Positions 40,353-62,279 of a stretch of DNA of 64,000 bases are shown here, one piece after another; within the stretch, counting starts at the first letter, position 1; each line of letters starts with the position of its first letter. The position numbers and the translations under genes were made by a program. The notes beneath the pieces were generated by a model. It made no database searches. It saw only the letters and a program-made list of their open reading frames with translations, and was not told the DNA's origin. Source of the stretch: a virus; IMG/VR virus record IMGVR_UViG_3300032285_004073, positions 32,001-96,000 of that record. One strand, 5' to 3'.

Positions 40353-40398
40353 TGTTTATAGATTATAAAGTATTTTTATAATTTATCAACTATGGAAA

Positions 40399-40926
40399 TT
40401 AATTATTAATGATTAAAAAACTTGTGCAAATATCTTCTGTTGTAGTATTTAAAGTTAAATTATTGTTTGATACAAATTCATCTACTGCTCTCATAACAGC
40501 AGTAAACATATTACAATAATCATGACCTGCTATTATACCGTTTTTTTTAACCTTTGTTTTTGCTAAATTTAAATCTATTTTACAGCCTTCGTAAGAATGA
40601 TCACCGTCTATATAAATAAAATCTAGATAATTATCTGGTAAAGAATTTAAAAAAATTTCGCTTTTTCCTTTAAAAAAAGATATTCGGTTTTCTTCTTTGT
40701 ATTTTTCTGTTAAAATTTTATAAGCATCTTCAAGAATGATATGCTTCATATTGCCCCCGTTTTTGTCTCCCGAACACATTGGACCTTCAAATAAATCAAC
40801 AAGATATAATTTTTTTGGATCTGTTGTGGAATATATAATTTCACTAAATGCTCCTTCAAATACTCCTATTTCTGCTCCAATGCCATTTTTTGGTATTAAT
40901 GTTAATAATTCTTCTCTAGTTTTCAT
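40399..40926 (-). CDS. Class I SAM-dependent methyltransferase (Methyltransf_24-like)
   Basis: GAEIGVFEG, YLVDLF, FIYIDGDHSYE, GIIAGHDY. Confidence 0.88.
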   Translation of the reverse strand: MKTREELLTLIPKNGIGAEIGVFEGAFSEIIYSTTDPKKLYLVDLFEGPMCSGDKNGGNMKHIILEDAYKILTEKYKEENRISFFKGKSEIFLNSLPDNYLDFIYIDGDHSYEGCKIDLNLAKTKVKKNGIIAGHDYCNMFTAVMRAVDEFVSNNNLTLNTTTEDICTSFLIINN

Positions 40927-41642
40927 AATTCAGATATAATGCTATTTATATAATTTAAATCTTTTCCAGTATAACAAGCACCTAAAAAATGTATTATACT
41001 AGAATCTTTAATTGAAATTTTATTTATACTATCCCACGCACCTCCTATATTTTTTAAATAAACAAAATCTGAAAGTGTTGGTTGTATTAAATTTAAAGAC
41101 GAGAAAAATTCATTAAAAATTGGTTGATCACATACAGCTTTATTTTTTACTGAATTTATGTATTCTAATAAAATATTAAAACTATTTAAATTAATTTTAT
41201 TAAATCCAAAAGTACCTGCATTAAAACCTTTAATAGAAAGATCGTAATTTGTATCACTAAATTTAAAATAGCCAATATTAGTATTAAGGCAGTCTACTTC
41301 TTTAACTCCGTGTATAATATTTTTTTGATTTTCTATACACTCAAAAACAGATTCGAGGGATTTAACTGGTATAGCATCTACATCTAAATAAAGAAAATTT
41401 TCATAATTAGATGCTAAATTTAATTTATTTATAATAAATTTAGCTGTATATTTAAAATCAAAATTATCAACTTCTATAATATGTGTTGGTTTTAAATCAT
41501 TTTCTAAAAACTGAAACCCTTTAGGTACAATACAACATGTATCAATATCTTTGTTATTATTTTTATTAAAACATTTTAAATTTATTTGAAGAATATCTTT
41601 ATATGCATTATCACATATATAGTAAATTAAATTTTTTTTCAT
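40923..41642 (-). CDS. GT-A glycosyltransferase (GT8-like)
   Basis: FLYLDVDAI, FNAG, CDQPIFNEFF, IIHF. Confidence 0.75.
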   Translation of the reverse strand: MKKNLIYYICDNAYKDILQINLKCFNKNNNKDIDTCCIVPKGFQFLENDLKPTHIIEVDNFDFKYTAKFIINKLNLASNYENFLYLDVDAIPVKSLESVFECIENQKNIIHGVKEVDCLNTNIGYFKFSDTNYDLSIKGFNAGTFGFNKINLNSFNILLEYINSVKNKAVCDQPIFNEFFSSLNLIQPTLSDFVYLKNIGGAWDSINKISIKDSSIIHFLGACYTGKDLNYINSIISEL

Positions 41643-42505
41643 AAAGCATTAAATCTAGCATTAATTTTTTTTTCTAAAACATAAAATTTAGACCCTTCTT
41701 CTATTTCATCATCCCATCGATTGTGCCAATGCCATGCGAATGCACCATCAAATAATTCTACAGATTCTTGTTTTTTAAATGGATTTAAATTTGTTCTTTC
41801 AAATCCCCATTCAGAATCAAACCAAATTCCGGGCAATACAGTTAAGTCGTTTTCAGAAACTTTACTATATAGATGATTTCCCCATATGTTTGTATTTTTA
41901 TTTTTAGGAGAAGTAAGAAGGTTTTGTAATAATTCAATAGATAATGAAGATTCTTTATCTAATTTCATTATAGCACCATTCATTGTTATTGAAGGCTCGT
42001 CTGAATTGAATCCAGAAGTACCCCATTGATATAAAAATTCTAAATCAGATAAAGGAGATAGATTTCTCAAAACTAATACATCCATATCTATATAAAATCC
42101 ACCATATTTATATAATACTAAAAGTCTGAACAAATCTCCTTCAAGATAACAAAGATCATCTTGTATTTCTTGAATGTTTATTTTACCTTCTAGTAAAGTA
42201 TTTTTGGTTTCTTCTAACAAATCCCATATTTTAAAATTTACATATGAAGAAACTTCTTTAAAATATTCGTTTTCTCTTAAATCTACATTAGACCAAAGAT
42301 TTATTTCTACATCTCTATGATTTACTATTATAGATTTTAAAACAGCAAGCTGTTTTCTTCCAAAATCTTTTGGTACTCTCCAAAAACAGTGAAAAACCAT
42401 CGGAATTTCTTTTTCCTTTAAAGTTTTAGCATGTGCTAAAGATTTTAAATAGGAATTTCTGTCTGGTCTATAAAGATCTAAATTATTATTTAATATTTTA
42501 ATCAT
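41639..42505 (-). CDS. GT32-like (DXD sugar-binding / Gb3 synthase-type) glycosyltransferase
   Basis: FHCFW, GDLFRLLVLYKYGGFYIDMDV, AWHWHN. Confidence 0.85.
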   Translation of the reverse strand: MIKILNNNLDLYRPDRNSYLKSLAHAKTLKEKEIPMVFHCFWRVPKDFGRKQLAVLKSIIVNHRDVEINLWSNVDLRENEYFKEVSSYVNFKIWDLLEETKNTLLEGKINIQEIQDDLCYLEGDLFRLLVLYKYGGFYIDMDVLVLRNLSPLSDLEFLYQWGTSGFNSDEPSITMNGAIMKLDKESSLSIELLQNLLTSPKNKNTNIWGNHLYSKVSENDLTVLPGIWFDSEWGFERTNLNPFKKQESVELFDGAFAWHWHNRWDDEIEEGSKFYVLEKKINARFNAL

Positions 42506-43151
42506 TTAATGCTTCGTTTTTAAAAACCATTAAAGTGTTTTTAACATGCGAACCGTTTGGTAAAAACGGATCTAAAACATTTTCAAACTTACCAACCTCT
42601 CCATGTTCATTCTCAAATCTATTATTTCTATAAGCAAAAATAGGTAATAAACTTCTTAAATTTAAAGATAAACTCTCTTCATAGGAAAAATTACTTTTCT
42701 TAAACTTATCGATCCAAAAATCAGCTACTTGGCAATTTACATGATGAAATCCGGGTTGCCCGGGTAATGCATGTGTCATTGCTACTAATTTACAACCTTC
42801 AAAGGTTTTCATAAAATTAGCACTATATTGTTCTTCTACATGTTCAACAAATTCACAACACCAAGCTAGATCATATGTTTTTTCTAAAATATAAGGAGCT
42901 TCCGTATAATCATGAATTTTAATGTGAGATTTTACAGGAGAACTTTCTATAGCATCAATAAAACCTTCTATACCTATACCTTCAATATTTTTATCTATAA
43001 AATATTTTAAAGAATGTCCCGCACCACAACCAACATCTACCATGCTTTTGATTTTAAACTTTTCTATTAAAGCATCCCAAACTTGTGGAGCCCATGTTCC
43101 GATATCATTTGATATTATACATCCTCCTAAATGTGATTTTTCTGTACTCAT
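42498..43151 (-). CDS. Class I SAM-dependent methyltransferase
   Basis: MVDVGCGAG, GIGIEG, YDLAWCCEFVEHV, GFHHVNCQ. Confidence 0.85.
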   Translation of the reverse strand: MSTEKSHLGGCIISNDIGTWAPQVWDALIEKFKIKSMVDVGCGAGHSLKYFIDKNIEGIGIEGFIDAIESSPVKSHIKIHDYTEAPYILEKTYDLAWCCEFVEHVEEQYSANFMKTFEGCKLVAMTHALPGQPGFHHVNCQVADFWIDKFKKSNFSYEESLSLNLRSLLPIFAYRNNRFENEHGEVGKFENVLDPFLPNGSHVKNTLMVFKNEALND

Positions 43152-43927
43152 TGGTTATTTGTTTTTTCTAATATAAAATTTCTATATGTTATTGGCTTTC
43201 CGTCGAGTTGATGTCCACTATTACCTTGCCTTTCATTAACAAATGGTTTAAATTTATTATTAATAAATTCTATTTGTTTATCTGTATCTAAAGAATAGAT
43301 AGGCTCAAAATCTGCATTATAAAAGAATATACTAGGTCTTTCGGGTCTATTAAGATAACCATCATTATAAACATCAATTAGATTTTCCGTTTGCTGCCCC
43401 GGAATTAAAATAACATTATTAAAATCTAATACTTTTATTTTATAATTATATTTTTTAAGTATATCTTCTAGCATTCCTAGTGAATATCCGAAATAATGAC
43501 TACCATCCCAGAAATAATCTTCATCATATTTTACTGAAAATTTAATATTGGCTGGAATCTTTTCGTTTATTTCACTTACTATTACTGAAGGTTTATATTC
43601 ACTTAATATTTTATCTAAAACAAAAAAATCATATCCATCTATATCTAAAGTTAGATAAAACCCGTCTGGAACATTATTTTCTCTTAAAATTTTTAAAATA
43701 TTTTCGGGATTTACTTTTGTATTTAAAACTTTAACTTTAGTATTTTTTAACTTTTCTTCTTGTATAGGAAATTTTGCAGGGTCGCATTCAAACATTAAAC
43801 CTTCCCACCCATTACGAAATAGTAATTCAGATTCTGAAGCTTCTGTATAACATGAAGCGCCTATATCAACAAAGTACTTTACAGGAAGAGTTAAAACACT
43901 ATCTTTAATTTTATCAATGGTTGTCAT
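43148..43927 (-). CDS. FkbM-like methyltransferase
   Basis: FVDIGA, GWEGLMFE, KVNPENI, LTLDIDGYDFFV, KPSVIVSEIN. Confidence 0.75.
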   Translation of the reverse strand: MTTIDKIKDSVLTLPVKYFVDIGASCYTEASESELLFRNGWEGLMFECDPAKFPIQEEKLKNTKVKVLNTKVNPENILKILRENNVPDGFYLTLDIDGYDFFVLDKILSEYKPSVIVSEINEKIPANIKFSVKYDEDYFWDGSHYFGYSLGMLEDILKKYNYKIKVLDFNNVILIPGQQTENLIDVYNDGYLNRPERPSIFFYNADFEPIYSLDTDKQIEFINNKFKPFVNERQGNSGHQLDGKPITYRNFILEKTNNQ

Positions 43928-44729
43928 AATTTTTATTTTTAATAAAGTCCGTCCAATAACTTATTTTAAGTTTTTCAAAATTCCACTCTTTTTGAATAAT
44001 TTCTGTATATTTTTCTTCCAAAAAATTTTTTTCTATTTGATTCCAATTTGTTATGAATAAAATTGGTAAATCGGTAAAAAGATGATGAGCATTTTCATAC
44101 CTTACGATAGGAATACTACCCATATAAAGTGTTTCCCATAGTCGGTGTGTATCAATACCATTTCCCTTTGGACAAAACACAAATTTTGATTTTTTTATAT
44201 CCTTTAAATATTTTTTTCTACCTTCTAAAGAACAGTCCACCGTTCCTTTATTTACCCACGATTCGTTTGAGAATTTTTCAAAAATTAAATTTCTTTCGGA
44301 ATGATTTGTTGATGTATTAATGTTTAAATAAGATAACTCAATTTTCTGTAAACTACTATCATTAAAAACATCAAACATAATATTTGTATTTCCATAAATC
44401 GGATGAAGATTGGATTCGTTAGAATTATTGGTTATACCAAGTGGTATTCCAAAACAATTATCTTCTTTATTATCTTTATTTATACAAAAAATTTTTTTAA
44501 ATTTTTTTGCTATATTAGTAGTTATGGGATAATCTGAATGCCCAACTACACAAATATTATCTACTCTAGTAGGATGAATACTACCTCTCCAATCAAAAAC
44601 TCCAGTATAAAAATAATCAGTTTTTATATAACATATATTATTTTCTAAACAAAATTTTAAATATTTATCTGTTGTAATAATATCAGATTCATCATATGTA
44701 AAATTTTCTATTTTCATACTAATATCCAA
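43914..44729 (-). CDS. Exostosin-like (GT47-type) glycosyltransferase
   Basis: SKFVFCPKGNGIDTHRLWETLYMGSIPIV. Confidence 0.8.
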   Translation of the reverse strand: MDISMKIENFTYDESDIITTDKYLKFCLENNICYIKTDYFYTGVFDWRGSIHPTRVDNICVVGHSDYPITTNIAKKFKKIFCINKDNKEDNCFGIPLGITNNSNESNLHPIYGNTNIMFDVFNDSSLQKIELSYLNINTSTNHSERNLIFEKFSNESWVNKGTVDCSLEGRKKYLKDIKKSKFVFCPKGNGIDTHRLWETLYMGSIPIVRYENAHHLFTDLPILFITNWNQIEKNFLEEKYTEIIQKEWNFEKLKISYWTDFIKNKNYDNH

Positions 44730-45388
44730 TTTAATTTAATTTTATGATTAGAATCAGGTCTTGCGGGTATATTATGATAATATACTTTTATATCTATATC
44801 TAGGCTATCTACAAAATCTTTGAAAGAAGAAGAAATACAATGAATTTCTTTTGCATTTTCTATTAATTTTCTATAATCAAACATTATATTTGTATGTTTT
44901 TCTACAAAAATTTTTTTTATTTTATCATCTATTAATTTGTATTTGATTCTATCGATACCGTCACTCCCTTTATTATGTATTAATACATAATCTTCTTTAT
45001 TAGGATTTAATTTATTAAAAAGATCTTCTTCAGATTCTTTGTTTCTTTTTATATAGAAAGATTCCCATCTTTTATTAAAATCTATACCAGCTTCTATATA
45101 AAAAAGTTGATCCCATGTTATATTTTCTGGAGGAGACTTAAATCCAACTTTAATACATGGGATATTATTGTTTATAATAATTTGATCAGCTTGCGAATCA
45201 TCATTAACAATAAAAAAAGATAAATTTTTAACATCTTCATACATAAACTTTACTGATGGTAAATTATGTTTTTTAACAATTAATTTGTAGAATTCAAATT
45301 GATTTTTTTTTATAATTTCACGAACTAGTCCATTACATATTATATGATCTCCTAATCCCAAATGGTGATATATAATAAGTTCTTTCAT
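44714..45388 (-). CDS. Putative GT-B glycosyltransferase-like protein
   Basis: HHLGLGDHIICNGLVR, AKEIHCISSSF; GT9-like N-terminal GLGD; island context. Confidence 0.5.
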   Translation of the reverse strand: MKELIIYHHLGLGDHIICNGLVREIIKKNQFEFYKLIVKKHNLPSVKFMYEDVKNLSFFIVNDDSQADQIIINNNIPCIKVGFKSPPENITWDQLFYIEAGIDFNKRWESFYIKRNKESEEDLFNKLNPNKEDYVLIHNKGSDGIDRIKYKLIDDKIKKIFVEKHTNIMFDYRKLIENAKEIHCISSSFKDFVDSLDIDIKVYYHNIPARPDSNHKIKLNWILV

Positions 45389-46269
45389 TTTATTAAAAAA
45401 TTTTTTAATGTTCTAGTTGCTTTCCATCCAAATATACAACACGTTTTTGATATATCTGCACAACTATGCTTTAGCTCTCCGATTTTTCCTTCTGTATATT
45501 CAATTTTATCAGAAATCCAAGAAGCTAATTGATTGATTGATATATCATTACCAGTGCCTACATTATAACAATCTCCATAAGAACTTAATTCTGTAGAAGA
45601 TGCTTTTATATTGATGTCCACGACATCATTTACATCAACAAAATCTCGTGTTTGAGTACCATCTCCATAAATCAATAAAGGTTTATCTTGGTTTTTATTA
45701 TTTAAAAAATTAACAAGCACTGAAGAGTATGGACTAATAGAATTATTTTTTCCATATACATTAAAATATCTCAGTGAGATTGTTTCTATCCCGTAAAGAT
45801 TATAATAAATCTTGCAAAGATTTTCTCCATATAATTTAGACACAGAATATAAATTTAAAGGATCAACTTCATCAAATTCTCTGTATACATATTTGTTATT
45901 TGATTGTTTATATACTGCTGAAGTAGAAGAAAATATAAATTTTTTTACATCCATTCTTCTACAAGCTTCCAAAACATTTAATGTAATATTTGTATTATTT
46001 AAACCACTTTCTCTTGGAAATTTATTACAATAATCTATTGATATGTCAGCTGCTAGATGGAAACACCTATCTACTGCATAAAAGCAGCTGAGTATCTCAT
46101 CGAAATTATTTAAATCATAATTATAATATATAGCACCATCTACAATATGATTATTTTTATTATTAGAGCTGTTATTATCGATAACGATTACGGTATCTCC
46201 AAGATCAACTAATCTTTTTACCAAATTACTACCAATAAATCCTTTACCGCCAGTAACTATACTTTTCAT
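45385..46269 (-). CDS. NAD-dependent epimerase/dehydratase (extended SDR)
   Basis: VTGGKGFIGSNL, FHLAA, FSSTSAVY, YSVSK (YxxxK), LRYFNVYG, GDGTQTRDFVDV. Confidence 0.95.
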   Translation of the reverse strand: MKSIVTGGKGFIGSNLVKRLVDLGDTVIVIDNNSSNNKNNHIVDGAIYYNYDLNNFDEILSCFYAVDRCFHLAADISIDYCNKFPRESGLNNTNITLNVLEACRRMDVKKFIFSSTSAVYKQSNNKYVYREFDEVDPLNLYSVSKLYGENLCKIYYNLYGIETISLRYFNVYGKNNSISPYSSVLVNFLNNKNQDKPLLIYGDGTQTRDFVDVNDVVDINIKASSTELSSYGDCYNVGTGNDISINQLASWISDKIEYTEGKIGELKHSCADISKTCCIFGWKATRTLKNFLIK

Positions 46270-46926
46270 TTATTGTTTTAAAAAAACCATATCCCACTCT
46301 ATAGTTTTTATGGGTTTATATCCTTTATTACCTAGGAATTTTACTATTTCGTTTGAATTATAATTTTTTTCTATTAAAAAACAATATATATTTGTTTTTT
46401 CAAAATTTATAGAATTTAAAACTTGAAGTTCTGCACCTTCTACATCAATTGATACTAAATCAATATTTAATAAATTGTATTTTTCTAATAAAGTTTGTAA
46501 TTTAAATGTTTTTATTTTTATTTTTTTGTGTGTAGAATATAAATCGTGTCCTACTGGATAATCTTTATATTGATTTAATTCTCTATTAATTCTTTCTTTA
46601 TGTTCTTGTGGATAAAATTCAATTATTCCACTTAATACATTACAAGGACCTCCAATACTTAAAAATTCCACTTCTCTTTCTTCGTTAGAGATAGCACAAT
46701 TTTCTTTAAATGATAAAGGACGAGGATGTAGATCCATTTTATTAAATTCAATAGGATTTGGTTCTATTAATAAACCAGACCAATCCCTTTCTTTTTCAAA
46801 AAACCACGTATTAGATGCTCCAAATCCGTCCAATGCACCTACTTCTACAAAAGTTCCTTTTGTTTTTTTATTAAAAATTTGTTCATCTAAAATTATATCT
46901 TGATTTATTTGTGATTTACTATTCAT
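46270..46926 (-). CDS. FkbM family methyltransferase
   Basis: SQINQD, FVEVGALDG..SNTWFFE, GLLIEPNP, IDLVSIDVEGAE. Confidence 0.9.
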   Translation of the reverse strand: MNSKSQINQDIILDEQIFNKKTKGTFVEVGALDGFGASNTWFFEKERDWSGLLIEPNPIEFNKMDLHPRPLSFKENCAISNEEREVEFLSIGGPCNVLSGIIEFYPQEHKERINRELNQYKDYPVGHDLYSTHKKIKIKTFKLQTLLEKYNLLNIDLVSIDVEGAELQVLNSINFEKTNIYCFLIEKNYNSNEIVKFLGNKGYKPIKTIEWDMVFLKQ

Positions 46927-46938
46927 GTTTATTATTGT

Positions 46939-47619
46939 TTAATAAATGTTTAAAGATTGTATATATTCATCTGCTGGCCCAAAGAATTTATCATTTTCAT
47001 CTATAGGTTGACCAACAAACCAAATTTTATCTCTTTCTACATTTCTTGGAGTCGGAAAATCACAATCATGGGTAATATTATCATATTGTGCATATTTTTC
47101 GTATATATATTGCAAGAAATATTGATCCATACCATGCATATCACTGTTATGTTGGATATAATGTTTTATATGGTCTTCTATATCCGGAACTATACCACCT
47201 TTAGAACCAAACATACCACCTAAAATAGGATAATCTGGTGTTCTGTGATATTTTGGATGGTCTTTCATTATATGAAAAGACTTCCCAGATTCTAACCATT
47301 GATCCACTGCTTCTTTTTCTCTTATGCTTAATCTACAGTCTGTATCTCTAGACATAAAATAACTGATATCCTTTTCTCCAAATGGTAAAAACCTATACAT
47401 CATAGAGTAGTGACTACCTTTTCTTTTACATAAAATAACTTCTGTATTGGGAAATTTTTCTAATTCTGGAATTAAATCAAAACATTCTTTAAAAATATAA
47501 AATCTGCATGTCCAATCTGGAAATAATTTTAACGCTAATTCTGCATTTTTTAATGCTCCTATGCTATACATAGGATGTGTTCCATAAACACAAAAGGTTA
47601 TTATTTTTTTAGTTTCCAT
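46939..47619 (-). CDS. Putative GT-A-like glycan-modifying protein
   Basis: ITFCVYG, MYRFLP, MSRDTDCRLS.RE..AV..W, FHIMKDHP.H, ILGGMFG; island context. Confidence 0.55.
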   Translation of the reverse strand: METKKIITFCVYGTHPMYSIGALKNAELALKLFPDWTCRFYIFKECFDLIPELEKFPNTEVILCKRKGSHYSMMYRFLPFGEKDISYFMSRDTDCRLSIREKEAVDQWLESGKSFHIMKDHPKYHRTPDYPILGGMFGSKGGIVPDIEDHIKHYIQHNSDMHGMDQYFLQYIYEKYAQYDNITHDCDFPTPRNVERDKIWFVGQPIDENDKFFGPADEYIQSLNIY

Positions 47620-48923
47620 TTTGCATCAAATTCTGCCCATTCTTCTGGGACACTTTCAAATTTATTATCTTCTAAATTTCCCCATCCAGTTGCTACTTTA
47701 ACATAATTTTCTTTTAAAAATTCATCAAAGTTTTTTTCTTTATTTTGGGTTTCTGTGTTTTCATTTACATAAATGCTAGGTTTTTCATTTTTTTCTACCT
47801 CGCATTGAATTTCTTCTATCATTTTATTATCAATTAAAGGTTTTAATGTTTTGAGAATAGCAAGGTCGTAGCCTTGTGTATCGCTTATATATGTTTTGAT
47901 ATAATTAATTTTATTTTCTTCTAAGAAATTTTTTAAATTTACTGTCGGAACTTTTATGGTTTGATTACTTTCAATTAAATCATATAAAATAGATTCTTTA
48001 TTAGCCTTTAATATAGAACTAGAATCTCCATTATTTTTAGAAATATTAAAATCAATAAAATCATTATGTTTTTCACATATTGCTGCGTTTATTATTGTTA
48101 CATTTTTATTATCTTTAAAGCGATTTTTTAAATGTTCACAAAAATTTGGATTCGCCTCAAATGCATATATTTCATCATATGAATTTACATAATTCTGTAA
48201 ACTATTTCCAACATGAGCTCCTACATAAATTAAAACGTTTTTTCTAGAAATAATTTCAGGAAATTCTAATTCTTTTCTTTTTGTATAAGTCTGTTGATCT
48301 ATCCCAAAATAAGATTCATTGCGAATATATAACTCATCAAAATTTGCTTTTTGCCAAGCTGGATGTTGGTGTTCAATTATTATTTTATTTGATCTATATA
48401 CTTTATTGAGTTTTAATGAAACATCTGTAAATTCATTATCACACCAAAGACTAATATAATCTGGGTGATATATATAATTAAATCTATCATAATATTTTTT
48501 CCCTAAAATAGAAAGAGTGTTAATGTTGTTTTGCCCTCCATCATTATACCAAAGAACACCATCACTATCTTTAAAATGATCATTCATATCCTTTCTGATG
48601 ATTTCATCATATCCCTGTTCGATAGGAATCATATCATCTGATGCTAACATAATAATATCCCAACCACTAATCTTATCTATGTCAGCATTACAAGCTTGAA
48701 TCTTTGTTTTGCTGTTTCCATAAAAATAGGCAATTTTTATATATTTTTTATAATCTTCAAATTTTTGCCTTACTATATTATTATTCATTTCAATATCATC
48801 AAGATCCATTGAAATTAAAAATGCTAGTCGAGATAAATCTGATGCTTTGGAAATATATTGATCTAAAACATTAAAAAATTTAATTGATCTTCCTCTGGTG
48901 GGAAATTTTATTAGTATTTTCAT
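47601..48923 (-). CDS. Fusion: GT2-like glycosyltransferase + FkbM-like methyltransferase
   Basis: N-terminal KFPTRGR..LASDDMIP..WCDNE; C-terminal IYVGAHVG..FEANP..ISDTQGYD. Confidence 0.8.
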   Translation of the reverse strand: MKILIKFPTRGRSIKFFNVLDQYISKASDLSRLAFLISMDLDDIEMNNNIVRQKFEDYKKYIKIAYFYGNSKTKIQACNADIDKISGWDIIMLASDDMIPIEQGYDEIIRKDMNDHFKDSDGVLWYNDGGQNNINTLSILGKKYYDRFNYIYHPDYISLWCDNEFTDVSLKLNKVYRSNKIIIEHQHPAWQKANFDELYIRNESYFGIDQQTYTKRKELEFPEIISRKNVLIYVGAHVGNSLQNYVNSYDEIYAFEANPNFCEHLKNRFKDNKNVTIINAAICEKHNDFIDFNISKNNGDSSSILKANKESILYDLIESNQTIKVPTVNLKNFLEENKINYIKTYISDTQGYDLAILKTLKPLIDNKMIEEIQCEVEKNEKPSIYVNENTETQNKEKNFDEFLKENYVKVATGWGNLEDNKFESVPEEWAEFDAKWKLKK

Positions 48924-48941
48924 ATTATAAAAATAATTTTA

Positions 48942-49484
48942 TTAATTTGTTGACGGATAATAATAATATATCGGACCTTTTATAAAAACTTCTGTTTTAA
49001 GTTTGCCTTTTAATCTTTGAGAAAAATCTTTATCTTCTTGCCAATATTTGTCTGGAAACTTTGCATCTAAAGCTATCTCTCTTTTAATAGGATTTAAATG
49101 ATTAGGACATCTATAATAAATTTCATTTTCTTCATACCAATCTGTATACTGCAAAGAGTGAATAAATTTCTTTGGTCCTATATCTTTTAAAGTTATTATG
49201 CCTTCTATTCCTACACAATCCGGACTTTGTTGAATAGCATTCAGTATCCCAAAAACATAAAAAGGGGAAATCATATCATCATCATCAATAAAGACTACAT
49301 AATCACCCTTTGCTGCTTCTAAAAGTTCATTTCTTTTAGCTCCTACACTCTTTTCACCGTTATCACAATTAGCTAACATTTCTATGTGTGAATTGGATTG
49401 AGCTTTTAAGACTCTTGCTAGATTCTCAAATACAGGTTTTCTTGATTCTAATGTTGCAGTTAATATAGAAAGTTTTTTACTCAT
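48942..49484 (-). CDS. GT2 family glycosyltransferase
   Basis: LSILTAT, VGAKRNELLEAAKGDYVVFIDDDD, EDKDFS. Confidence 0.88.
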   Translation of the reverse strand: MSKKLSILTATLESRKPVFENLARVLKAQSNSHIEMLANCDNGEKSVGAKRNELLEAAKGDYVVFIDDDDMISPFYVFGILNAIQQSPDCVGIEGIITLKDIGPKKFIHSLQYTDWYEENEIYYRCPNHLNPIKREIALDAKFPDKYWQEDKDFSQRLKGKLKTEVFIKGPIYYYYPSTN

Positions 49485-49485
49485 T

Positions 49486-50961
49486 TTAATTTACAATGTA
49501 ATGACTTATATTATTATTACTATTTTTCAATGTTATATTGTTTATTTTTTCAAGACAATTAGAAACACCATCTTTTTTATGGTAATTTTCTCCTAATTTA
49601 CCTGATTCATAATTTCTAAATCTTTCACCGTTTTTTAAATGAAGTTCATTTTCTATAGGATTATTTAAACGGTGCTCGTGTGGAATACTATAATATTTTC
49701 CATAAGGATGTTTGTAAGGTGTTAATTTTTCTTTGATACATCTTTCATAAAGATCATCATCTTCTTTACCCCATCCCACAAATTCATTACTATAACCATT
49801 TACTTGTCCATAATGTTCTTTAGAGAAAGTTATAACTCCACCCATGATTTTATCTGGAATATTAATATAATTGAATTGACTACAATGACTGCTAAGATGA
49901 GCCGGCTTTTCTGGATAACTATAATCTGAAATTTCCGGTATTAAATCTACATCATGAAAACAAATATAATCACCAGTAGCTTTAGTAAAACCTATATTAT
50001 TTAATAATCCTTTATTAAAGGCTTTTTTATCACCTTGTTCCACTATTATTATTTCAAAGTCTTCTACTTGTTTAGAAAGATACTTTTGCAATAAAGGAAC
50101 CATGTTTTCAAGTGCTAATTCTCTATCTCTATAAGGAATTATAACTGATAATTTTTTGCCTTTATTAACTATTTTTTTTCTACTATAGTGAGTTTGTAAT
50201 TCTATTAAACTTACTAAGACTTCTTTAAGGCTTGGTTCTTGTATACTGCTCGTAAAATGTCCCCATTTTTTAACAAAGTAAATGGCTGATTTTTCTAAAT
50301 TTTCATTATATCCAGGTTTATTAGTAATAGAAGAATTTTCATTACTACCTTCTATATCCGTAAGATATTCTTCACTATTTAATAAATCCGGAAAATACCA
50401 AAAAGGCGGAGCTACATTTTTCTTTATTAAGTTATAAGCAAAGTCTATATGCTCGAAAGCATTAGTATATCCTTCATCAAAATAACCTAATTTAGTTATA
50501 AGATTAGCATGAACATACATAAATGCACCTTGAGGATTTTTATAAAATCCGATTTTTACACCATCTGGTTGCTCTAGAGTATATTTTAAAGTATCACCAT
50601 TATTGTTTATTTTTTCAAAACATAGATGATGTATGCCAGTAGAATTTGCAGCTTTAATATAATGCTGAAATACTTTAGGATCTTTAATTAAGATATCATC
50701 TTCTATAAGAAAAAGATGCTTATATCCCTTTTCTATTAAAATTTTAAGAGCTTTGTTTTTAGTTTTGGCAATACCAAGTTGCTCATTATTTAATATAACC
50801 TCATCTGCATCTCCTTTTTGAACATAAGGATTAGTTCCATCATTTACTACAACTAAACAGCCAATTTCATTCCTAGGAATGGTTTTTAATACCTGGGAAT
50901 AGTAGTCTGGTCTGTTATAGGTGAGTATTGCTACTCCTATTTCTGATGGTATTGTTTCCAT
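49486..50961 (-). CDS. Fusion: GT2-like domain + GT7 (beta-1,4-galactosyltransferase-like) domain
   Basis: N-terminal ILTYNRP..LFLIEDD..GYFDE; C-terminal IIPYRDR, VEQG..FNKGLL.NIGF, FHDVDLIP, MGGV, VNGYSNEFVGWGKEDDD. Confidence 0.88.
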   Translation of the reverse strand: METIPSEIGVAILTYNRPDYYSQVLKTIPRNEIGCLVVVNDGTNPYVQKGDADEVILNNEQLGIAKTKNKALKILIEKGYKHLFLIEDDILIKDPKVFQHYIKAANSTGIHHLCFEKINNNGDTLKYTLEQPDGVKIGFYKNPQGAFMYVHANLITKLGYFDEGYTNAFEHIDFAYNLIKKNVAPPFWYFPDLLNSEEYLTDIEGSNENSSITNKPGYNENLEKSAIYFVKKWGHFTSSIQEPSLKEVLVSLIELQTHYSRKKIVNKGKKLSVIIPYRDRELALENMVPLLQKYLSKQVEDFEIIIVEQGDKKAFNKGLLNNIGFTKATGDYICFHDVDLIPEISDYSYPEKPAHLSSHCSQFNYINIPDKIMGGVITFSKEHYGQVNGYSNEFVGWGKEDDDLYERCIKEKLTPYKHPYGKYYSIPHEHRLNNPIENELHLKNGERFRNYESGKLGENYHKKDGVSNCLEKINNITLKNSNNNISHYIVN

Positions 50962-51767
50962 ATTTCTTTTAAATTATCCAATACTTCTGATTCTGTAGCT
51001 ATTTTTTCAGCTGGTCCATAGCCTTGTGATACTGAAAAATTATTTTTTTCTATAAAATAATCAAGAGCTATCTTAAAAGTCTTCATAAAATCCTCTTGTG
51101 ACCTTATTTTGCTATCTTGGTGATTAGCTTTAATATCTGAAATACAATCTGAGGAACCATTTATATCCGCAAACCATCTAAAAGGAGGGTGATAACCTGC
51201 TTTGATAATTTGATAAGTATGATCAACATGCTCTAAAGCATTGTAATACTTTTCATCCATATAACCACAATCGGTAATTGTGTCTTTGTGGTAGTAACTA
51301 AGGGCTCCTAATACATTTTCATAGAGGTCAATTTTTAAATCTGATGGGTAATTTATAGTCTTTTTAATATTAGGAAGTCCGTATCCGTTTAGATTATGGT
51401 GTCCGTGTAATGCAAAATTAAAATGTTTAATACCAGTAGCTTCAGATGCTTCTATGTATTTCTGAAATATTTTACCATTGGTTATGGTAATATCGTCTTC
51501 CATTAAAAAGATATGCTTACAATTATTTTCTAATAGGTATTTTAAAGCTGCATTTTTGGCTTTACCAACACCTTGATAACCTATTGTGTCTATAATCTTT
51601 AATGAATCATCTTTTATTTTTATAGATCCGTCATTAATAATGATTATTTCATAGTCAGGATAATCCTTTAAAGCTTTAACCAAACTATCTTTGGCTTGAT
51701 TAAAGAACTCTATTCTATCACAGGTTATAAGACCTACACCAATTTTAGACGATGTTTTTTTTGGCAT
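50937..51767 (-). CDS. GT2-like glycosyltransferase
   Basis: IGVGLITCDR, IINDG, GVGKAKNAALKYL, IFLMEDD, GYMDEKY..EHVD. Confidence 0.85.
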   Translation of the reverse strand: MPKKTSSKIGVGLITCDRIEFFNQAKDSLVKALKDYPDYEIIIINDGSIKIKDDSLKIIDTIGYQGVGKAKNAALKYLLENNCKHIFLMEDDITITNGKIFQKYIEASEATGIKHFNFALHGHHNLNGYGLPNIKKTINYPSDLKIDLYENVLGALSYYHKDTITDCGYMDEKYYNALEHVDHTYQIIKAGYHPPFRWFADINGSSDCISDIKANHQDSKIRSQEDFMKTFKIALDYFIEKNNFSVSQGYGPAEKIATESEVLDNLKEIWKQYHQK

Positions 51768-52512
51768 AATTCTTTTGAATGTCTTCCATATGTTTTAACA
51801 ATTCTTCTTGTGTAACACCTGCTGGGTCATTCTGACCTGGAATATATTGATGGTTATGCATAAAAAATGCATAAGAAATTTGTACACTTTTATCTAAATC
51901 GGGGATATCTTTAAACCCTATTTTTTGAATAGGAGTATTTGATTTTTGTAAACCCTTTTCTATAGATGGGTGATAATGATTAGGAGGATATATACCCTTC
52001 TTTCTCATTTTTAATATATAATCTAAAGTATCTAAATTTTTTGAATTACAATATCTTTCATCAAAATAACCATTATTTTTGATAACTCCGGTATATAAGA
52101 ATATAAATTCATCATTTAATTCCGGAGTAAGATATAAAGTAACACCAGCTTCGTCGTCTTCTACTGGCAAAGATTTAGTTCCTGGTCCCAACATAAACCA
52201 AGTGCCAAAGGTTTCTGCTGTTTTAATAGTATTAGTAAATAGTTCAGGATCTGTTACTACTTGATTAGAATGAATAAGAAACAAAAATTTATAATCTTTG
52301 ATTCTTAATTGAGATATTAACCAATTTTTAAGTGTAGCAAAAGAAACATCCTTATCATAATTTCTACTGTTTTCATTTTTCAAAAATTTATTTTTAGTAT
52401 TTGATACTACAAAAACATTATTTTGCAAATCTTTGGGTATAGAAGAGTAGCAATTTTGCAGATCTTCCGGTGAATATATATCTAGAATACCTATGCCTAT
52501 TTTATCATTCAT
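51745..52512 (-). CDS. Degenerate GT2-like paralog lacking the DxD/EDD motif
   Basis: Collinear with the two downstream paralogs (IGIGIL, FLFLIHSN in place of FLIEDD, GYFDERY, KKGIYPP). Confidence 0.6.
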   Translation of the reverse strand: MNDKIGIGILDIYSPEDLQNCYSSIPKDLQNNVFVVSNTKNKFLKNENSRNYDKDVSFATLKNWLISQLRIKDYKFLFLIHSNQVVTDPELFTNTIKTAETFGTWFMLGPGTKSLPVEDDEAGVTLYLTPELNDEFIFLYTGVIKNNGYFDERYCNSKNLDTLDYILKMRKKGIYPPNHYHPSIEKGLQKSNTPIQKIGFKDIPDLDKSVQISYAFFMHNHQYIPGQNDPAGVTQEELLKHMEDIQKNYAKKNIV

Positions 52513-59331: not shown

Positions 59332-59337
59332 TCTTAT

Positions 59338-60836: not shown

Positions 60837-60842
60837 TGAGAT

Positions 60843-62275: not shown

Positions 62276-62279
62276 TGTA

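What the first reader, a model, noticed from the sequence alone, without database searches (positions are those of the whole stretch)
40399..52512. 12 kb glycan-synthesis island splitting the gp47-gp46 pair
Seen: 16 co-oriented, mostly abutting or overlapping genes between the two subunits of the Mre11/Rad50-like nuclease. They comprise GT2-like (several), GT7, GT8-like, GT32-like, GT47-like and GT9-like enzymes, an NDP-sugar epimerase and 5 methyltransferase domains. Established: T4 genes 47 and 46 are near-adjacent, and alpha-gt lies beside 47. Inference: the phage builds a complex O-methylated oligosaccharide on virion proteins, the host surface or DNA, a repertoire more like giant eukaryotic viruses than classical phages.
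Basis: partly seen in the sequence, partly recalled or inferred. Interest (0 to 1): 0.8.

Follow-up and report, generated by a model that had tools for sequence, protein, structure and literature searches.

The report
Swappable glycan-gene island in T4-like phage
An uncultured large relative of phage T4 carries 15 back-to-back genes for soluble sugar-adding and sugar-methylating enzymes between two DNA-repair genes; its relatives keep the first few genes and swap the rest, and the molecule that receives the sugar chain (probably phage proteins, very probably not DNA) is still unknown.

Summary
They lie on the minus strand at 40399-52512, tightly packed, between gp47/SbcD and gp46/SbcC. Every ORF is glycan-related. 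Ten proteins carry 11 glycosyltransferase domains (GT2-like x4, GT7, an N-terminal GT-A-like domain, a further GT-A, GT9-like, GT47-like, GT32-like, GT8). There are 5 methyltransferase domains and one NDP-sugar epimerase.

The island is not an assembly chimera. Twelve other IMG/VR loci with both flanks show the same gp47-island-gp46 layout. All keep a core (GT2c, GT2b, GT2+GT7) and have hypervariable cargo: 49 protein clusters, 35 of them singletons. Two strains with 96-99% identical flanks carry different cargo. More distant relatives have gp47 and gp46 adjacent.

All island enzymes lack membrane segments. Neither this genome nor a 100%-complete clade member encodes a phosphoglycosyl transferase, flippase, polymerase/ligase, dCMP/dUMP hydroxymethylase or C5 DNA methylase. 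DNA glycosylation is therefore unlikely, and autonomous surface-polysaccharide synthesis is excluded.

My best reading (about 0.45) is cytoplasmic glycosylation of phage proteins. The main rival is remodelling of host envelope glycans.

Glycan gene clusters in aquatic T4-like phages are already known. The fixed slot and the core-plus-cargo design make this a new variant. This scan had already flagged the same island in at least six other genomes.

The parts
52509..53561 (-). gp47 / SbcD-Mre11-like nuclease subunit; upstream flank. Its stop overlaps the start of the first island gene.
   Evidence: phrog_100 E 1.8e-64; Metallophos. Homologues of 49-74% identity precede the island in all relatives.
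51745..52512 (-). Core GT 'GT2c': GT-A (GT2-like) paralogue, first island gene, present in 13/13 loci.
   Evidence: phrog_2456 E 6e-6. BLASTP to the N-domain of the 491-aa protein, E 1e-16. Cluster c0 in all 13 loci.
50937..51767 (-). Core GT 'GT2b': GT2-like, present in 13/13 loci.
   Evidence: phrog_2456 E 1.4e-23; Glycos_transf_2 E 4e-4. 36% identity to the N-domain of the next gene.
49486..50961 (-). Core bifunctional GT: N-terminal GT2-like domain (about 1-265) fused to a C-terminal GT7 (beta-1,4-galactosyltransferase-like) domain (about 266-491). Present in 13/13 loci.
   Evidence: Glyco_transf_7N/7C E 1e-18 and 2e-19. PDB beta4GalT7/T1 E 1e-24. Motifs FNK315, DVD337-339, WGKEDDD397-403, H428 and EDD87-89 are invariant in 12 sequences. 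The fusion was seen only in viral contigs.
48942..49484 (-). Short GT2-like glycosyltransferase 'GT2s' (180 aa); semi-conserved.
   Evidence: phrog_14775 E 1.5e-30; Glycos_transf_2 29.7 bits. Present in most relatives.
47601..48923 (-). Two-domain enzyme: an N-terminal GT-A-like domain (1-221, present in 12/13 loci) fused here to an FkbM O-methyltransferase domain (about 230-380).
   Evidence: phrog_14945 'glycosyltransferase' E 1.7e-12; Methyltransf_21 E 1e-10; TIGR01444 60 bits. In relatives the same N-domain is fused to a GT2s-like domain or, in L019, to the 46939-type GT-A. SDD95-97 is invariant.
46939..47619 (-). GT-A fold glycosyltransferase with a DxD motif (D92-T-D94); no Pfam hit.
   Evidence: AF2 pLDDT 95.8. 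Foldseek top matches are AvpGT, PBCV-1 A064R-D1, glycogenin and GT6 enzymes, TM about 0.5-0.55. The only PDB profile hit is 2p6w at E 0.079. The family has 66 members.
46270..46926 (-). FkbM-family SAM methyltransferase (cargo).
   Evidence: Methyltransf_21 E 5.7e-17; TIGR01444 47 bits.
45385..46269 (-). NAD-dependent NDP-sugar epimerase/dehydratase (SDR); specificity unresolved. It is the only one in the genome.
   Evidence: Epimerase E 6e-52. Best NCBIfam matches are GalE (130 bits) and ADP-heptose 6-epimerase (121 bits), both far below their cut-offs. Single PF01370 hit in the genome. 79% identical to the L019 copy, above backbone identity.
44714..45388 (-). Compact GT9-like GT-B glycosyltransferase (224 aa), from a family of more than 1000 proteins with no Pfam hit.
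   Evidence: AF2 pLDDT 95.6. Top PDB folds are GT9 3tov (TMq 0.62), WaaC, WaaF and TibC. 1065 homologues without a Pfam domain.
43914..44729 (-). GT47/exostosin-like (RXYLT1_C-like) glycosyltransferase; unique to this window among the 13 loci.
   Evidence: Exostosin_GT47 36.1 bits (cut-off 33.4); RXYLT1_C 35.9 bits. Singleton cluster c44.
43148..43927 (-). Divergent FkbM-like methyltransferase; unique to this window.
   Evidence: Methyltransf_21 E 0.0019, below the cut-off. Atlas: 22 of 30 nearest clusters carry FkbM, score 0.97; structure TM 0.81 to an FkbM cluster.
42498..43151 (-). Class I SAM methyltransferase; unique to this window.
   Evidence: Methyltransf_23/11/12/25, E 2e-5 to 3e-3, all just below their cut-offs.
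41639..42505 (-). GT32-type (Gly_transf_sug, DXD) glycosyltransferase; shared with L019 only (35%).
   Evidence: PF04488 E 3.2e-11, 44.2 bits.
40923..41642 (-). GT8 retaining glycosyltransferase; unique to this window.
   Evidence: Glyco_transf_8 E 2.3e-8, 34.4 bits (cut-off 24.3).
40399..40926 (-). Methyltransf_24 class I SAM methyltransferase; last island gene.
   Evidence: PF13578 E 2.9e-14; weak TylF (macrocin O-MT) match; phrog_2675, E 2e-18.
40362..40389 (-). Sigma-70-like promoter candidate (TTGATA-16-TATAAT) in the 46-nt gap before gp46.
   Evidence: 11/12 consensus match. Promoter-like sites are not enriched over shuffles in this region, so this is only a candidate.
38526..40352 (-). 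gp46 / SbcC-Rad50-like subunit; downstream flank.
   Evidence: phrog_77 E 5.6e-100; SMC_N.
36382..37701 (-). Conserved GT-B ('group 1'-like) glycosyltransferase between gp46/QueE and gp43. Present wherever that part of a clade locus is covered, in the distant L009 and, as a domain, in L031. Probably part of the same pathway.
   Evidence: phrog_7162 E 4e-22. Atlas 0.99 to phage 'Glycosyl transferases group 1' clusters. 65-76% identity in relatives. L031 co-occurrence.
58378..63798 (+). Second, divergently oriented glycan cluster: 58378-59331 (weak GT9-like), FkbM MT 59338-60015, sulfotransferase 60012-60836, an unknown at 60843-61511, GT2/GT92 61508-62275, an unknown at 62280-63152, and a TOD1/MUCI70-like GT 63142-63798.
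   Evidence: Pfam hits; PHROG hits; TIGR02201 E 0.0057. Partly conserved in L015, L020 and L023.

Best explanation
The block is a dedicated glycan-synthesis locus, and it occupies a fixed slot in the replication/recombination operon of a deeply divergent, roughly 226-kb T4-like phage clade.

Shown:
- A conserved core lies directly downstream of gp47, its first gene overlapping gp47's stop. It comprises three paralogous GT-A enzymes, one of them fused to a GT7 domain, and usually a fourth GT-A-like enzyme.
- A strain-specific cargo follows, made of further glycosyltransferases, O-methyltransferases and sugar-nucleotide enzymes.
- The cargo is exchanged by recombination that uses the core and gp46 as arms.
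- All the enzymes are soluble.

Inferred:
- The enzymes act in the cytoplasm of the infected cell on host nucleotide sugars and SAM.
- The conserved enzymes, probably together with the conserved GT-B at 36382-37701, build an inner oligosaccharide on a conserved acceptor.
- The cargo enzymes extend and cap it with strain-specific sugars and O-methyl groups. The second cluster may add sulfate.
- The acceptor is most likely one or more phage proteins, probably exposed on the virion. That would give each strain its own 'glycotype', as in chlorovirus capsid glycans and in glycosylated mycobacteriophage capsids and tails.
For: Anatomy and families.

Clade-wide slot:
- 18 related loci share the order UvsW-gp55-gp47-core-cargo-gp46-(QueE)-GT-B-gp43.
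- In the 13 loci with both flanks, 126 island proteins fall into 49 clusters, 3 universal and 35 singletons.
- Cargo in relatives is likewise all glycan-related: FkbM, GT1, GT2, GT8, GT32, GT47, SDR, RmlD, FdtA, DegT, HtrL.

Recombination signature:
- L024 and L033 have gp47 99% and gp46 96.5% identical.
- Identity falls along the island, 97.7 to 94.4 to 90.1 to 70% and then to no homologue.
- This window's epimerase and 46939-type GT are 79-80% identical to the L019 copies, against 49-63% for the flanks.

Insertion in a subclade: relatives with 36% gp46 identity have gp47 and gp46 about 200 bp apart. A 93%-complete such genome lacks the core GT.

Soluble enzymes and no export parts:
- No hydrophobic 19-mer segments in any island protein, and only one ORF in the genome has 3 or more such segments.
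- No Bac_transf, Glycos_transf_4, Wzx or Wzy_C in this genome or in six related records, including a 100%-complete one. Positive controls rang.

Against DNA as the target.

Precedents:
- Chloroviruses have a conserved core glycan with virus-specific decoration, and a GT-GT-MT enzyme, A064R (PMC9614988).
- The Corndog O-MT + GT operon was proposed to modify the capsid (PMC4351075).
- Glycans are reported on mycobacteriophage capsid and tail-tube C-termini (as cited in PMC12619734).

Weak leads:
- The best cultured-phage hits of the core GT2 domain are mycobacteriophage GTs at 24% identity.
- The GT9 fold family includes the protein heptosyltransferase TibC.
Against: There is no direct evidence for any acceptor.

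GTs of O-antigen and LPS-core pathways are also soluble or peripheral, so the absence of membrane segments does not exclude action on host lipid-linked intermediates.

The island sits in a replication/recombination operon headed by a sigma-70-like (early-type) promoter candidate. It is not among the structural genes, as it is in mycobacteriophages.

I found no Ser/Thr-rich tail or other obvious acceptor motif in structural proteins.

The similarity to mycobacteriophage and chlorovirus enzymes is at fold or superfamily level only.

Several families found here or in relatives (GT8, GT9, HtrL, FdtA/DegT) are classic LPS/O-antigen families.

The host is unknown.
Confidence: 0.45

Rival explanations
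1. Host-envelope remodelling. The soluble phage GTs and MTs act at the inner face of the membrane on the host's own undecaprenyl-linked (or lipid A-core) intermediates. Host flippase, ligase and transporters then export the altered glycan. This changes the infected cell's surface, for example to block superinfection or to stop progeny adsorbing to doomed cells and debris.
For: This is the standard reading of 'LPS'/cell-wall gene sets in aquatic T4-like phages (PMC7029224, PMC12801897). The families GT8, GT9-like, GT2, HtrL_YibB, FdtA, DegT and RmlD are typical of LPS/O-antigen loci. The architecture of conserved flanks, hypervariable centre and somewhat lower GC (26.5% against 31.6%) resembles O-antigen loci. 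The probable early-type operon position fits host takeover.
Against: No phage-encoded priming transferase, flippase, polymerase/ligase or other polytopic membrane protein is found in this genome or in a complete clade genome. Everything would therefore depend on host parts. A core conserved across phages with only 45-66% gp46 identity implies a conserved acceptor, and that is easier to explain by a phage molecule than by variable host O-antigens. The enzymes are far from the curated bacterial families (NCBIfam shows no hits at or near the cut-offs).
Confidence: 0.3
2. DNA hypermodification. The enzymes build an oligosaccharide on a modified base of the phage genome to block restriction, as T4 a-gt/b-gt and the MT+TET+GT clusters do.
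For: T4 a-gt lies next to gene 47 and b-gt near 42/43. The island lies in the replication module. Phage DNA glycans of up to three sugars, made by LPS-like GTs, are known (bioRxiv 10.1101/2023.12.21.572611). The last island gene matches a PHROG labelled 'DNA methyltransferase'. The phage carries 7-deazaguanine genes, with QueE at 37737-38495.
Against: There is no homologue of T4 a-gt or b-gt. There is no ThyA-family dCMP/dUMP hydroxymethylase and no C5 DNA methylase in this record or in a 100%-complete clade genome, whereas the island-less out-group has both. There is no Tet_JBP hit, but that control was silent, so the result carries little weight. Eleven GT domains, five MT domains and a sulfotransferase far exceed any known DNA glycan. 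No sugar-bearing 7-deazaguanine is known to me (own knowledge).
Confidence: 0.05
3. A soluble cytoplasmic product. The pathway would make a free polymethylated oligo- or polysaccharide, or glycosylate a small molecule or lipid, and this would serve the infection metabolically or as an osmolyte or defence decoy. It would not be a coat on a macromolecule.
For: All the enzymes are soluble and rich in O-methyltransferases. Cytoplasmic polymethylated polysaccharides made by soluble GTs and MTs exist in mycobacteria (own knowledge).
Against: Strain-level hypervariability and cargo swapping point to a product exposed to diversifying selection, not a metabolic one. No precedent in phages is known to me.
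Confidence: 0.07
4. Assembly chimera: bacterial polysaccharide genes wrongly joined into a phage contig.
For: The island has slightly lower GC than the genome. The last five or six cargo genes have no counterpart in the 12 related islands.
Against: The same gp47-island-gp46 layout is found in 12 other loci with both flanks, from several samples. The overlapping gp47/first-GT junction is seen again in L015, and core genes are 44-80% identical. All genes are co-oriented and overlapping, within a 176.8-kb contig. Read coverage could not be checked.
Confidence: 0.01

Closest known systems
'LPS' / cell-wall-synthesis gene clusters of aquatic T4-like myophages (cyanophages P-SSM2, S-SCSM1, S-SCSM2R; pelagimyophages) - PMC12801897, PMC7029224
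   Same: T4-like backbone. Many clustered glycosyltransferases plus NDP-sugar epimerases. Strain-variable content. Function untested. This genome has at least 14 GT domains in the window alone, comparable to the 13 GTs called 'may be the highest number' in a marine phage.
   Different: Those clusters lie mainly in the hypervariable host-recognition region with the tail fibres, or are scattered. Here the locus has a fixed slot between gp47 and gp46 in the replication operon, with a conserved paralogous core and swappable cargo. The backbone is only 27-29% identical (gp46, gp43) to any cultured phage. No cyanophage appeared among the listed matches of the two conserved GTs tested, and the organism tallies named none.
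Chlorovirus (PBCV-1) capsid N-glycan machinery: A064R (GT-GT-MT), A061L, A111/114R - PMC9614988, PMC7826918
   Same: Virus-encoded soluble GTs and O-methyltransferases acting in the cytoplasm. Multidomain GT/MT fusion enzymes. A conserved core oligosaccharide with virus-specific outer decoration, which mirrors the conserved-core/variable-cargo gene layout here. One island GT-A resembles A064R-D1 in fold.
   Different: That is a eukaryotic giant virus and this is a tailed phage. Homology is at superfamily level only (TM about 0.5, profile E 0.079). No glycan has been observed here. The chlorovirus genes are scattered, not in one slot.
Actinobacteriophage virion glycosylation operons (Corndog gp35-38: O-methyltransferase + GTs; cluster F phages) - PMC4351075; Freeman et al. 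2023 as cited in PMC12619734 (the paper itself is not held)
   Same: Phage-encoded GT-A enzymes plus an O-methyltransferase in one operon. The best cultured-phage hits of the core GT2 domain are 322 Mycobacterium phage GTs.
   Different: Those operons have 3-4 genes and sit among or near the structural genes. Here there are 15 genes in the replication module. Identity is only about 24%. No Ser/Thr-rich C-terminal acceptor tail was found.
Bacterial O-antigen / capsule loci (Wzx/Wzy- or ABC-dependent)
   Same: Conserved flanks used as recombination arms, a hypervariable low-GC centre, and the same enzyme classes (GT2/8/9, FkbM and class I MTs, SDR, FdtA/DegT/RmlD in relatives).
   Different: No priming phosphoglycosyl transferase, flippase, polymerase, ligase or transporter. 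The locus is carried by a lytic-type phage.
T4 alpha-/beta-glucosyltransferases and phage MT+5mYOX+GT DNA-glycan clusters (bioRxiv 10.1101/2023.12.21.572611)
   Same: GT genes embedded among the replication genes, next to gene 47 in T4.
   Different: No homologues of a-gt or b-gt, and no enzyme that makes a glycosylatable base. The pathway is far more complex than any known DNA glycan.

Membership tests
CAZy GT7 (beta-1,4-galactosyltransferase family), for the C-domain of 49486-50961 | Significant sequence similarity to characterised beta4GalTs / Pfam Glyco_transf_7N + 7C | tested here: met
   PF13733 67.4 bits and PF02709 69.6 bits, both above their cut-offs. PDB beta4GalT7 at E 9.5e-25 and beta4GalT1 at E 7e-23.
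CAZy GT7 (beta-1,4-galactosyltransferase family), for the C-domain of 49486-50961 | Signature motifs: FNR/K, metal-binding DVD, and WGxEDDD with the catalytic acidic residues (motif identities from my own knowledge of beta4GalT1) | tested here: met
   FNK315, DVD337-339, WGKEDDD397-403 and H428 are present and invariant in 12 homologues.
CAZy GT7 (beta-1,4-galactosyltransferase family), for the C-domain of 49486-50961 | Inverting transfer of Gal/GalNAc from a UDP-sugar in beta-1,4 linkage | not testable with these tools
   Needs an enzyme assay.
CAZy GT9 (heptosyltransferases), for 44714-45388 | GT-B fold closest to GT9 structures | tested here: met
   Foldseek top hits are 3tov (TMq 0.62), WaaC, WaaF and TibC, on a model with pLDDT 95.6.
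CAZy GT9 (heptosyltransferases), for 44714-45388 | Sequence-level membership (Pfam Glyco_transf_9 / PDB sequence match) | tested here: not met
   No Pfam, NCBIfam or PDB sequence or profile hit. It is also about 100 residues shorter than GT9 enzymes. So it is 'GT9-like', not a filed member.
T4-type DNA glucosylation system | Homologue of a-gt (GT72) or b-gt (GT63) | tested here: not met
   BLASTP and phmmer of T4 a-gt and b-gt against all ORFs of 90 aa or more in the genome gave nothing below E 0.07.
T4-type DNA glucosylation system | Enzyme that makes a hydroxymethyl-pyrimidine (ThyA-family dCMP/dUMP hydroxymethylase, or C5-MT + TET/5mYOX) | tested here: not met
   PF00303 and PF00145 are absent from G000 and from the 100%-complete clade genome G005, and present in the out-group G003; controls rang. 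PF12851 is absent, but its control was silent.
Lipid-carrier-dependent surface polysaccharide locus (Wzx/Wzy type) | Priming phosphoglycosyl transferase (Bac_transf or WecA/MraY type) | tested here: not met
   PF02397 and PF00953 are absent from 7 records including G000 and G005. Controls rang in 10 and 12 of 14 genomes.
Lipid-carrier-dependent surface polysaccharide locus (Wzx/Wzy type) | Flippase and polymerase/ligase (polytopic membrane proteins) | tested here: not met
   PF01943 and PF04932 are absent. No island protein has a hydrophobic 19-mer, and one ORF in the whole record has 3 or more such segments. ABC-transporter families were not searched.
Lipid-carrier-dependent surface polysaccharide locus (Wzx/Wzy type) | Conserved flanks with a hypervariable GT/sugar-modification centre | tested here: met
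Glycan ('LPS'/CWSM) clusters of aquatic T4-like phages | T4-like core genome with clustered GTs and NDP-sugar enzymes | tested here: met
   gp43, gp46, gp47, gp55, UvsW, tail sheath and terminase; island content.
Glycan ('LPS'/CWSM) clusters of aquatic T4-like phages | Location in the hypervariable host-recognition / tail-fibre region (as described for PMPs and CMPs, PMC7029224) | tested here: not met
   Here the locus lies between gp47 and gp46 in the replication operon in all 13 loci.
Phage virion-glycosylation operons (mycobacteriophage type) | GT + O-MT genes adjacent to capsid/portal genes, with glycan on capsid/tail-tube C-termini | tested here: not met
   The position test failed: the island is about 19 kb from the nearest structural-type ORFs. 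The glycan itself cannot be tested here. No S/T-rich tails were found.
Chlorovirus-type autonomous capsid glycosylation | Soluble virus-encoded multidomain GT/MT enzymes, with conserved core plus variable decoration | tested here: inconclusive
   Met at the gene level. Homology is only at fold level. No glycan data.

The most novel reading that the evidence does not exclude
A whole lineage of roughly 226-kb T4-like phages coats its own virion proteins with a phage-made, O-methylated (perhaps sulfated) oligosaccharide. The inner part is conserved and the outer part is swapped between strains by cassette recombination in the gp47-gp46 slot. That would be phage 'glyco-serotypes', convergent with chlorovirus capsid glycans and bacterial O-antigens, and it would be the most complex autonomous protein-glycosylation system known in a tailed phage.
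Probability: 0.35. Interest if true: 0.8.

Novelty: new variant of a known kind. Interest (0 to 1): 0.55.

Why it matters
Glycosyltransferase-rich regions of aquatic T4-like phages have been noted since the first cyanophage genomes. None has an assigned product, and they are usually written off as 'LPS genes'.

This clade offers a tractable case. The slot is fixed. The minimal conserved core is small: four genes with six GT domains in the complete genome G005. Natural cargo-swap variants exist on nearly identical backbones. The negative evidence removes DNA and autonomous surface-polysaccharide synthesis from the options.

If the acceptor is a virion protein, phage particles in lakes and seas would carry strain-specific glycan coats. 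That would bear on adsorption, on grazing and aggregation, on recognition by host defences, and on how viral 'species' are delineated.

The locus is also a reservoir of uncharacterised enzymes. These include a virus-only GT2+GT7 fusion, a family of compact GT9-like enzymes with more than 1000 members and no Pfam hit, and divergent FkbM sugar methyltransferases.

Tried and rejected
1. Megablast of the region against 50,697 phage records found nothing. The nearest cultured phages are only 27-29% identical in gp46 and gp43, so no annotated close relative could be used.

2. T4 late-promoter motif TATAAATA: 10 sites against about 22 expected, so it is depleted and says nothing about expression timing. 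Sigma-70-like and terminator scans are at chance level overall. Timing stays inferred from operon position.

3. hhalign between shallow in-house alignments was too insensitive to link the unknown ORFs to known domains. It did not even pair the FkbM domains above 50% probability. An earlier run printed nothing because of a parsing error. I used structure prediction and the Atlas search instead.

4. Single-linkage clustering merged GT2s, the N-domain of the 440-aa protein and the 46939 protein into one cluster. This was traced to domain fusions in relatives, not to homology.

5. A scan for Ser/Thr-rich acceptor tails in all ORFs found only fibre-like low-complexity stretches and one small ORF of unknown role.

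6. PDB sequence or profile searches for the GT-B at 36382, the 440-aa protein and its N-domain alignment gave no useful hit.

7. NCBIfam gave no assignment at or near the cut-offs for any GT, and the epimerase specificity stays open.

8. The 'moraphage' jumbo lineage (PMC12619734) was considered as the clade's identity and rejected. It is described as a relative of huge sediment phages that lacks much of the machinery of other large phages, whereas this phage has a T4-like replisome.

10. Freeman et al. 2023 (PMC10527164) is not held, so I cite it only through papers that cite it.

Its GT assignment rests on phrog_14945 and an invariant SDD motif.

Full report
WHAT IS THERE.

The window is bases 32001-96000 of a 176,807-bp IMG/VR virus record that is estimated 82% complete. 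It is a T4-like phage. The window holds PhoH, a tail sheath, a baseplate-hub-like protein and the large terminase at 0.8-13.5 kb. A long minus-strand replication block follows, with gp43 DNA polymerase, gp46/SbcC, gp47/SbcD, the gp55 late sigma factor and a UvsW-like helicase.

The backbone is very far from anything cultured. gp46 is at most 27% and gp43 at most 29.5% identical to any of 50,697 phage records, and megablast finds nothing.

Between gp47 (52509-53561) and gp46 (38526-40352) lie 15 minus-strand ORFs covering 40399-52512. Ten of the 14 junctions overlap by 4-25 nt and the other four leave 0-18 nt. gp47's stop overlaps the first island start. The block is therefore one tight transcription and translation unit embedded in the gp55-gp47-...-gp46 operon.

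The only strong sigma-70-like matches on that strand lie in two places. One is at the head of the operon (56092-56054), in the divergent intergenic region. The other is in the 46-nt gap before gp46 (40389-40362). Such matches are not enriched over shuffles, so they are candidates only.

WHAT THE GENES ENCODE.

All 15 are glycan enzymes. In the direction of transcription they are:

1. 51745-52512, 'GT2c'.
2. 50937-51767, 'GT2b'.
3. 49486-50961. Its N-domain and genes 1 and 2 are three GT2-like GT-A paralogues (36% and 23% identity, E 3e-45 and 1e-16; PHROG 2456/1579). Its C-domain is a clear GT7 beta-1,4-galactosyltransferase-family domain. Pfam 7N and 7C hit at E 1e-18 and 2e-19 and PDB beta4GalT7/T1 at E 1e-24. 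The FNK, DVD and WGKEDDD motifs are invariant in 12 homologues.
4. 48942-49484, a short GT2-like enzyme.
5. 47601-48923, a GT-A-like N-domain (phrog_14945, E 1.7e-12) fused to an FkbM methyltransferase domain.
6. 46939-47619. It has no Pfam hit, but a high-confidence model (pLDDT 95.8) has a GT-A fold with a DxD motif. The fold resembles AvpGT, PBCV-1 A064R-D1, glycogenin and GT6 enzymes.
7. 46270-46926, FkbM methyltransferase.
8. 45385-46269, an SDR NDP-sugar epimerase/dehydratase of unresolved specificity and the only one in the genome.
9. 44714-45388. It has no Pfam hit. The model (pLDDT 95.6) is a compact GT-B whose best PDB matches are GT9 enzymes: 3tov, WaaC, WaaF and the protein heptosyltransferase TibC. 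Its family has more than 1000 members with no Pfam hit.
10. 43914-44729, GT47/RXYLT1-like.
11. 43148-43927, a divergent FkbM-like methyltransferase (Pfam below the cut-off; Atlas 0.97).
12. 42498-43151, class I methyltransferase.
13. 41639-42505, GT32-type.
14. 40923-41642, GT8.
15. 40399-40926, Methyltransf_24.

The total is 11 GT domains in 10 proteins, 5 MT domains and 1 epimerase.

Two further pieces lie outside the stated coordinates. A GT-B ('group 1'-like) glycosyltransferase at 36382-37701 lies just past gp46 and QueE. A second, divergently oriented glycan cluster at 58378-63798 holds an FkbM methyltransferase, a sulfotransferase, a GT2/GT92 enzyme, a TOD1/MUCI70-like GT and a weak GT9-like protein. 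The annotations given here are from my own calls.

IS IT REAL?

Yes. Searching IMG/VR with gp46 and with the GT2+GT7 protein brought in 18 related loci from many samples. They share the order UvsW - gp55 - gp47 - GT2c - GT2b - GT2+GT7 - (GT2s) - N440-type GT - cargo - gp46 - (QueE) - GT-B - gp43.

In the nearest relative, L015, gp47 and the first GT overlap just as they do here. Twelve of these loci contain both flanks. An assembly chimera is therefore excluded for the island as a whole. Only the very last junction (Methyltransf_24/gp46) is unique to this contig, and read coverage could not be checked.

HOW IT EVOLVES.

In the 13 loci with both flanks the island is 4.3-12.2 kb long, and this window has the longest. 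Its 126 proteins fall into 49 clusters. Three are universal or nearly so and 35 are singletons. Five of this window's last six genes have no counterpart in the other 12 islands.

The cargo of the relatives is again exclusively glycan-related: FkbM and class I MTs, GT1/2/8/32/47, SDR epimerases/dehydratases, RmlD, FdtA, DegT aminotransferase, HtrL and DUF6492.

Two strains, L024 and L033, are 99% (gp47) and 96.5% (gp46) identical in the flanks, yet their cargo differs. Identity decays along the island: 97.7% (GT2c), 94.4% (GT2b), 90.1% (GT2+GT7), 70%, then no homologue. That is the footprint of cassette replacement by homologous recombination, with the conserved core and gp46 as arms.

The converse also occurs. 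This window's epimerase and its 46939-type GT are 79-80% identical to the L019 copies, while the flanks are only 49-63% identical. That suggests lateral movement of cargo between backbones.

Domain shuffling is visible too. The N440-type GT is fused to FkbM here, to the 46939-type GT-A in L019, and to a GT2s-like domain in most relatives.

More distant relatives (gp46 36% identical) have gp47 and gp46 about 200 bp apart. A 93%-complete genome of that kind has no homologue of the core GT. The island is therefore an insertion that defines a subclade. A 100%-complete member of the subclade (G005, 225,756 bp) has the minimal island: four genes with six GT domains and no methyltransferase.

Island GC is 26.5% against 31.6% for the genome.

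The GT2+GT7 fusion was found only in viral contigs. Bacterial genomes (Steroidobacteraceae, Sulfurimonas, Chromatiales and others) have the GT7-like domain alone at 30-44% identity. GT7 is thus not a eukaryote or giant-virus hallmark.

WHAT IS THE ACCEPTOR?

This is not shown. The computations narrow it in three ways.

(a) Solubility and export. No island or second-cluster protein has a hydrophobic 19-residue segment, and only one ORF in the record has three or more. Pfam families for the priming phosphoglycosyl transferases, the Wzx flippase and the Wzy/ligase are absent from this record and from six related ones, including the complete G005. Positive controls rang in 10-13 of 14 reference genomes. 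The phage cannot prime, flip or polymerise a surface polysaccharide by itself.

(b) DNA. There is no homologue of T4 a-gt or b-gt. There is no ThyA-family hydroxymethylase and no C5 DNA methylase in this record or in complete G005, although the island-less out-group G003 has both. There was no Tet_JBP hit, but that control was silent. Known DNA glycans have at most three sugars (bioRxiv 10.1101/2023.12.21.572611). DNA is unlikely, at about 0.05.

(c) A conserved acceptor. The core is conserved across phages whose gp46 is only 45-66% identical to this one, and a conserved GT-B lies beside it. The same trio also travels together in an unrelated viral contig (L031). This implies a conserved acceptor, which is more easily a phage molecule than a variable host O-antigen.

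Weak leads point the same way. The best cultured-phage hits of the core GT2 domain are 322 mycobacteriophage GTs at about 24% identity. This is the kind of phage GT that PMC12619734 and PMC11256854 connect with capsid glycosylation. The 46939 GT-A's only PDB profile hit is the PBCV-1 capsid-glycan enzyme A064R-D1 (E 0.079). GT9 includes protein heptosyltransferases.

Against this reading, the island is in the replication operon rather than the structural one. LPS-pathway GTs are also soluble. No acceptor motif was found.

My estimates are: phage (virion) protein glycosylation 0.45; remodelling of host envelope glycans via host carriers and export 0.30; DNA 0.05; a free cytoplasmic product 0.07; the rest unknown.

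COMPARISON WITH WHAT IS KNOWN.

The general kind is known. P-SSM2, S-SCSM1 and S-SCSM2R carry large cell-wall/'LPS' gene sets, and S-SCSM2R's 13 GTs are called possibly the highest number in a marine phage (PMC12801897). Pelagimyophages carry many GTs in their hypervariable host-recognition region (PMC7029224).

Three things differ here. The slot inside the replication operon is fixed. The design is a conserved paralogous core followed by swappable cargo. The density is high: at least 14 GT domains, 6 MT domains and a sulfotransferase within 28 kb.

Functionally the closest analogues are the chlorovirus capsid-glycan system and the mycobacteriophage O-MT + GT operons. The chlorovirus system has a conserved core oligosaccharide, virus-specific decoration and GT-GT-MT enzymes (PMC9614988). 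The mycobacteriophage operons are described in PMC4351075. In population-genetic terms the closest analogue is a bacterial O-antigen locus.

I found no paper that describes this clade or this slot.

This scan has flagged the same gp47-gp46 island in at least six other genomes, and the follow-up reports there reached similar readings. My conclusions rest on the calls cited here, not on those notes.

VERDICT.

DNA is unlikely as the target, the virion-versus-host question is open, and the giant-virus comparison is overstated. It is a new variant of a known kind, with interest 0.55.

Noticed in passing
window 58378-63798 (+): A second glycan cluster, divergent from the replication operon: a weak GT9-like protein, an FkbM MT, a sulfotransferase (Sulfotransfer_3/1), GT2/GT92, a TOD1/MUCI70-like GT and two unknowns. 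The sulfotransferase and the 58378 protein recur in L015, L020 and L023. This suggests the glycan may also be sulfated.
   Followed up: partly
window 36382-37701 (-): A GT-B glycosyltransferase is conserved between gp46/QueE and gp43 in every clade locus that reaches that far. It is also in the distant L009 (29%) and occurs as a domain of a 785-aa protein in L031, near copies of the core GT pair. It is a candidate for the conserved first step of the pathway.
   Followed up: partly
L002:16491-17501; L016:4700-5988; L023:21085-21276: Essential replication genes of relatives are interrupted. gp43 has an insertion of about 1 kb in L002/L015 and a short gap in L023. UvsW is split by about 1.3 kb in L016. 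These look like inteins or introns with homing endonucleases.
   Followed up: no
window 56320-56754 (+): A 144-aa ORF at the divergent promoter region, conserved in all relatives. It matches phrog_447 (labelled NAD synthetase, E 4e-31) and several homing-endonuclease PHROGs. It is not glycan-related, so the second cluster proper starts at 58378.
   Followed up: no
window 44714-45388 (-) and proteins P0067-P0186: The compact (about 220 aa) GT9-like GT-B protein belongs to a family of more than 1000 metagenomic proteins with no Pfam hit and strongly conserved motifs (GLGDHI near the N-terminus, HCIDSSF near residue 183).
   Followed up: partly
L031 (IMGVR_UViG_3300000558_000068), 2402-21343: A different viral contig, without gp46/gp47 nearby, carries the same GT2b + GT2/GT7 pair (43-45% identity), a phrog_7162-type GT domain and an aminotransferase in another long co-oriented block. 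The core module is therefore mobile between virus backbones.
   Followed up: partly
L034-L060: About 27 other viral contigs carry a stand-alone GT7-like gene (31-36% identity). In many it lies about 9 kb downstream of a homologue of this genome's ORF at G000:120923-121864, and about 7 kb upstream of an epimerase. This is a second, unrelated phage group with a syntenic glycan region.
   Followed up: no
L064 (CAYGJD010000001.1, 192,950 bp, 'uncultured bacterium' MAG): One of only two 'bacterial' records with a homologue of the core GT2 N-domain is a 193-kb contig, about the size of a phage genome. It may be a mis-binned phage.
   Followed up: no
G003 versus G000/G005: The island-less out-group genome has a ThyA-family enzyme and a C5 DNA methylase. 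The island-bearing clade has neither and carries 7-deazaguanine genes instead (QueE at window 37737-38495). The two sister groups may therefore use different DNA chemistries.
   Followed up: partly
window 1749-2177 (-): A 142-aa ORF with no PHROG match, next to the tail sheath gene, has a Ser/Thr/Pro-rich stretch at residues 98-122 near its C-terminus. This was the only small-protein hit of the acceptor-motif scan, and its role is unknown.
   Followed up: no
whole window: The T4 late-promoter consensus TATAAATA is depleted (10 sites against about 22 expected from shuffles). Late promoters of this clade probably differ from those of T4.
   Followed up: no
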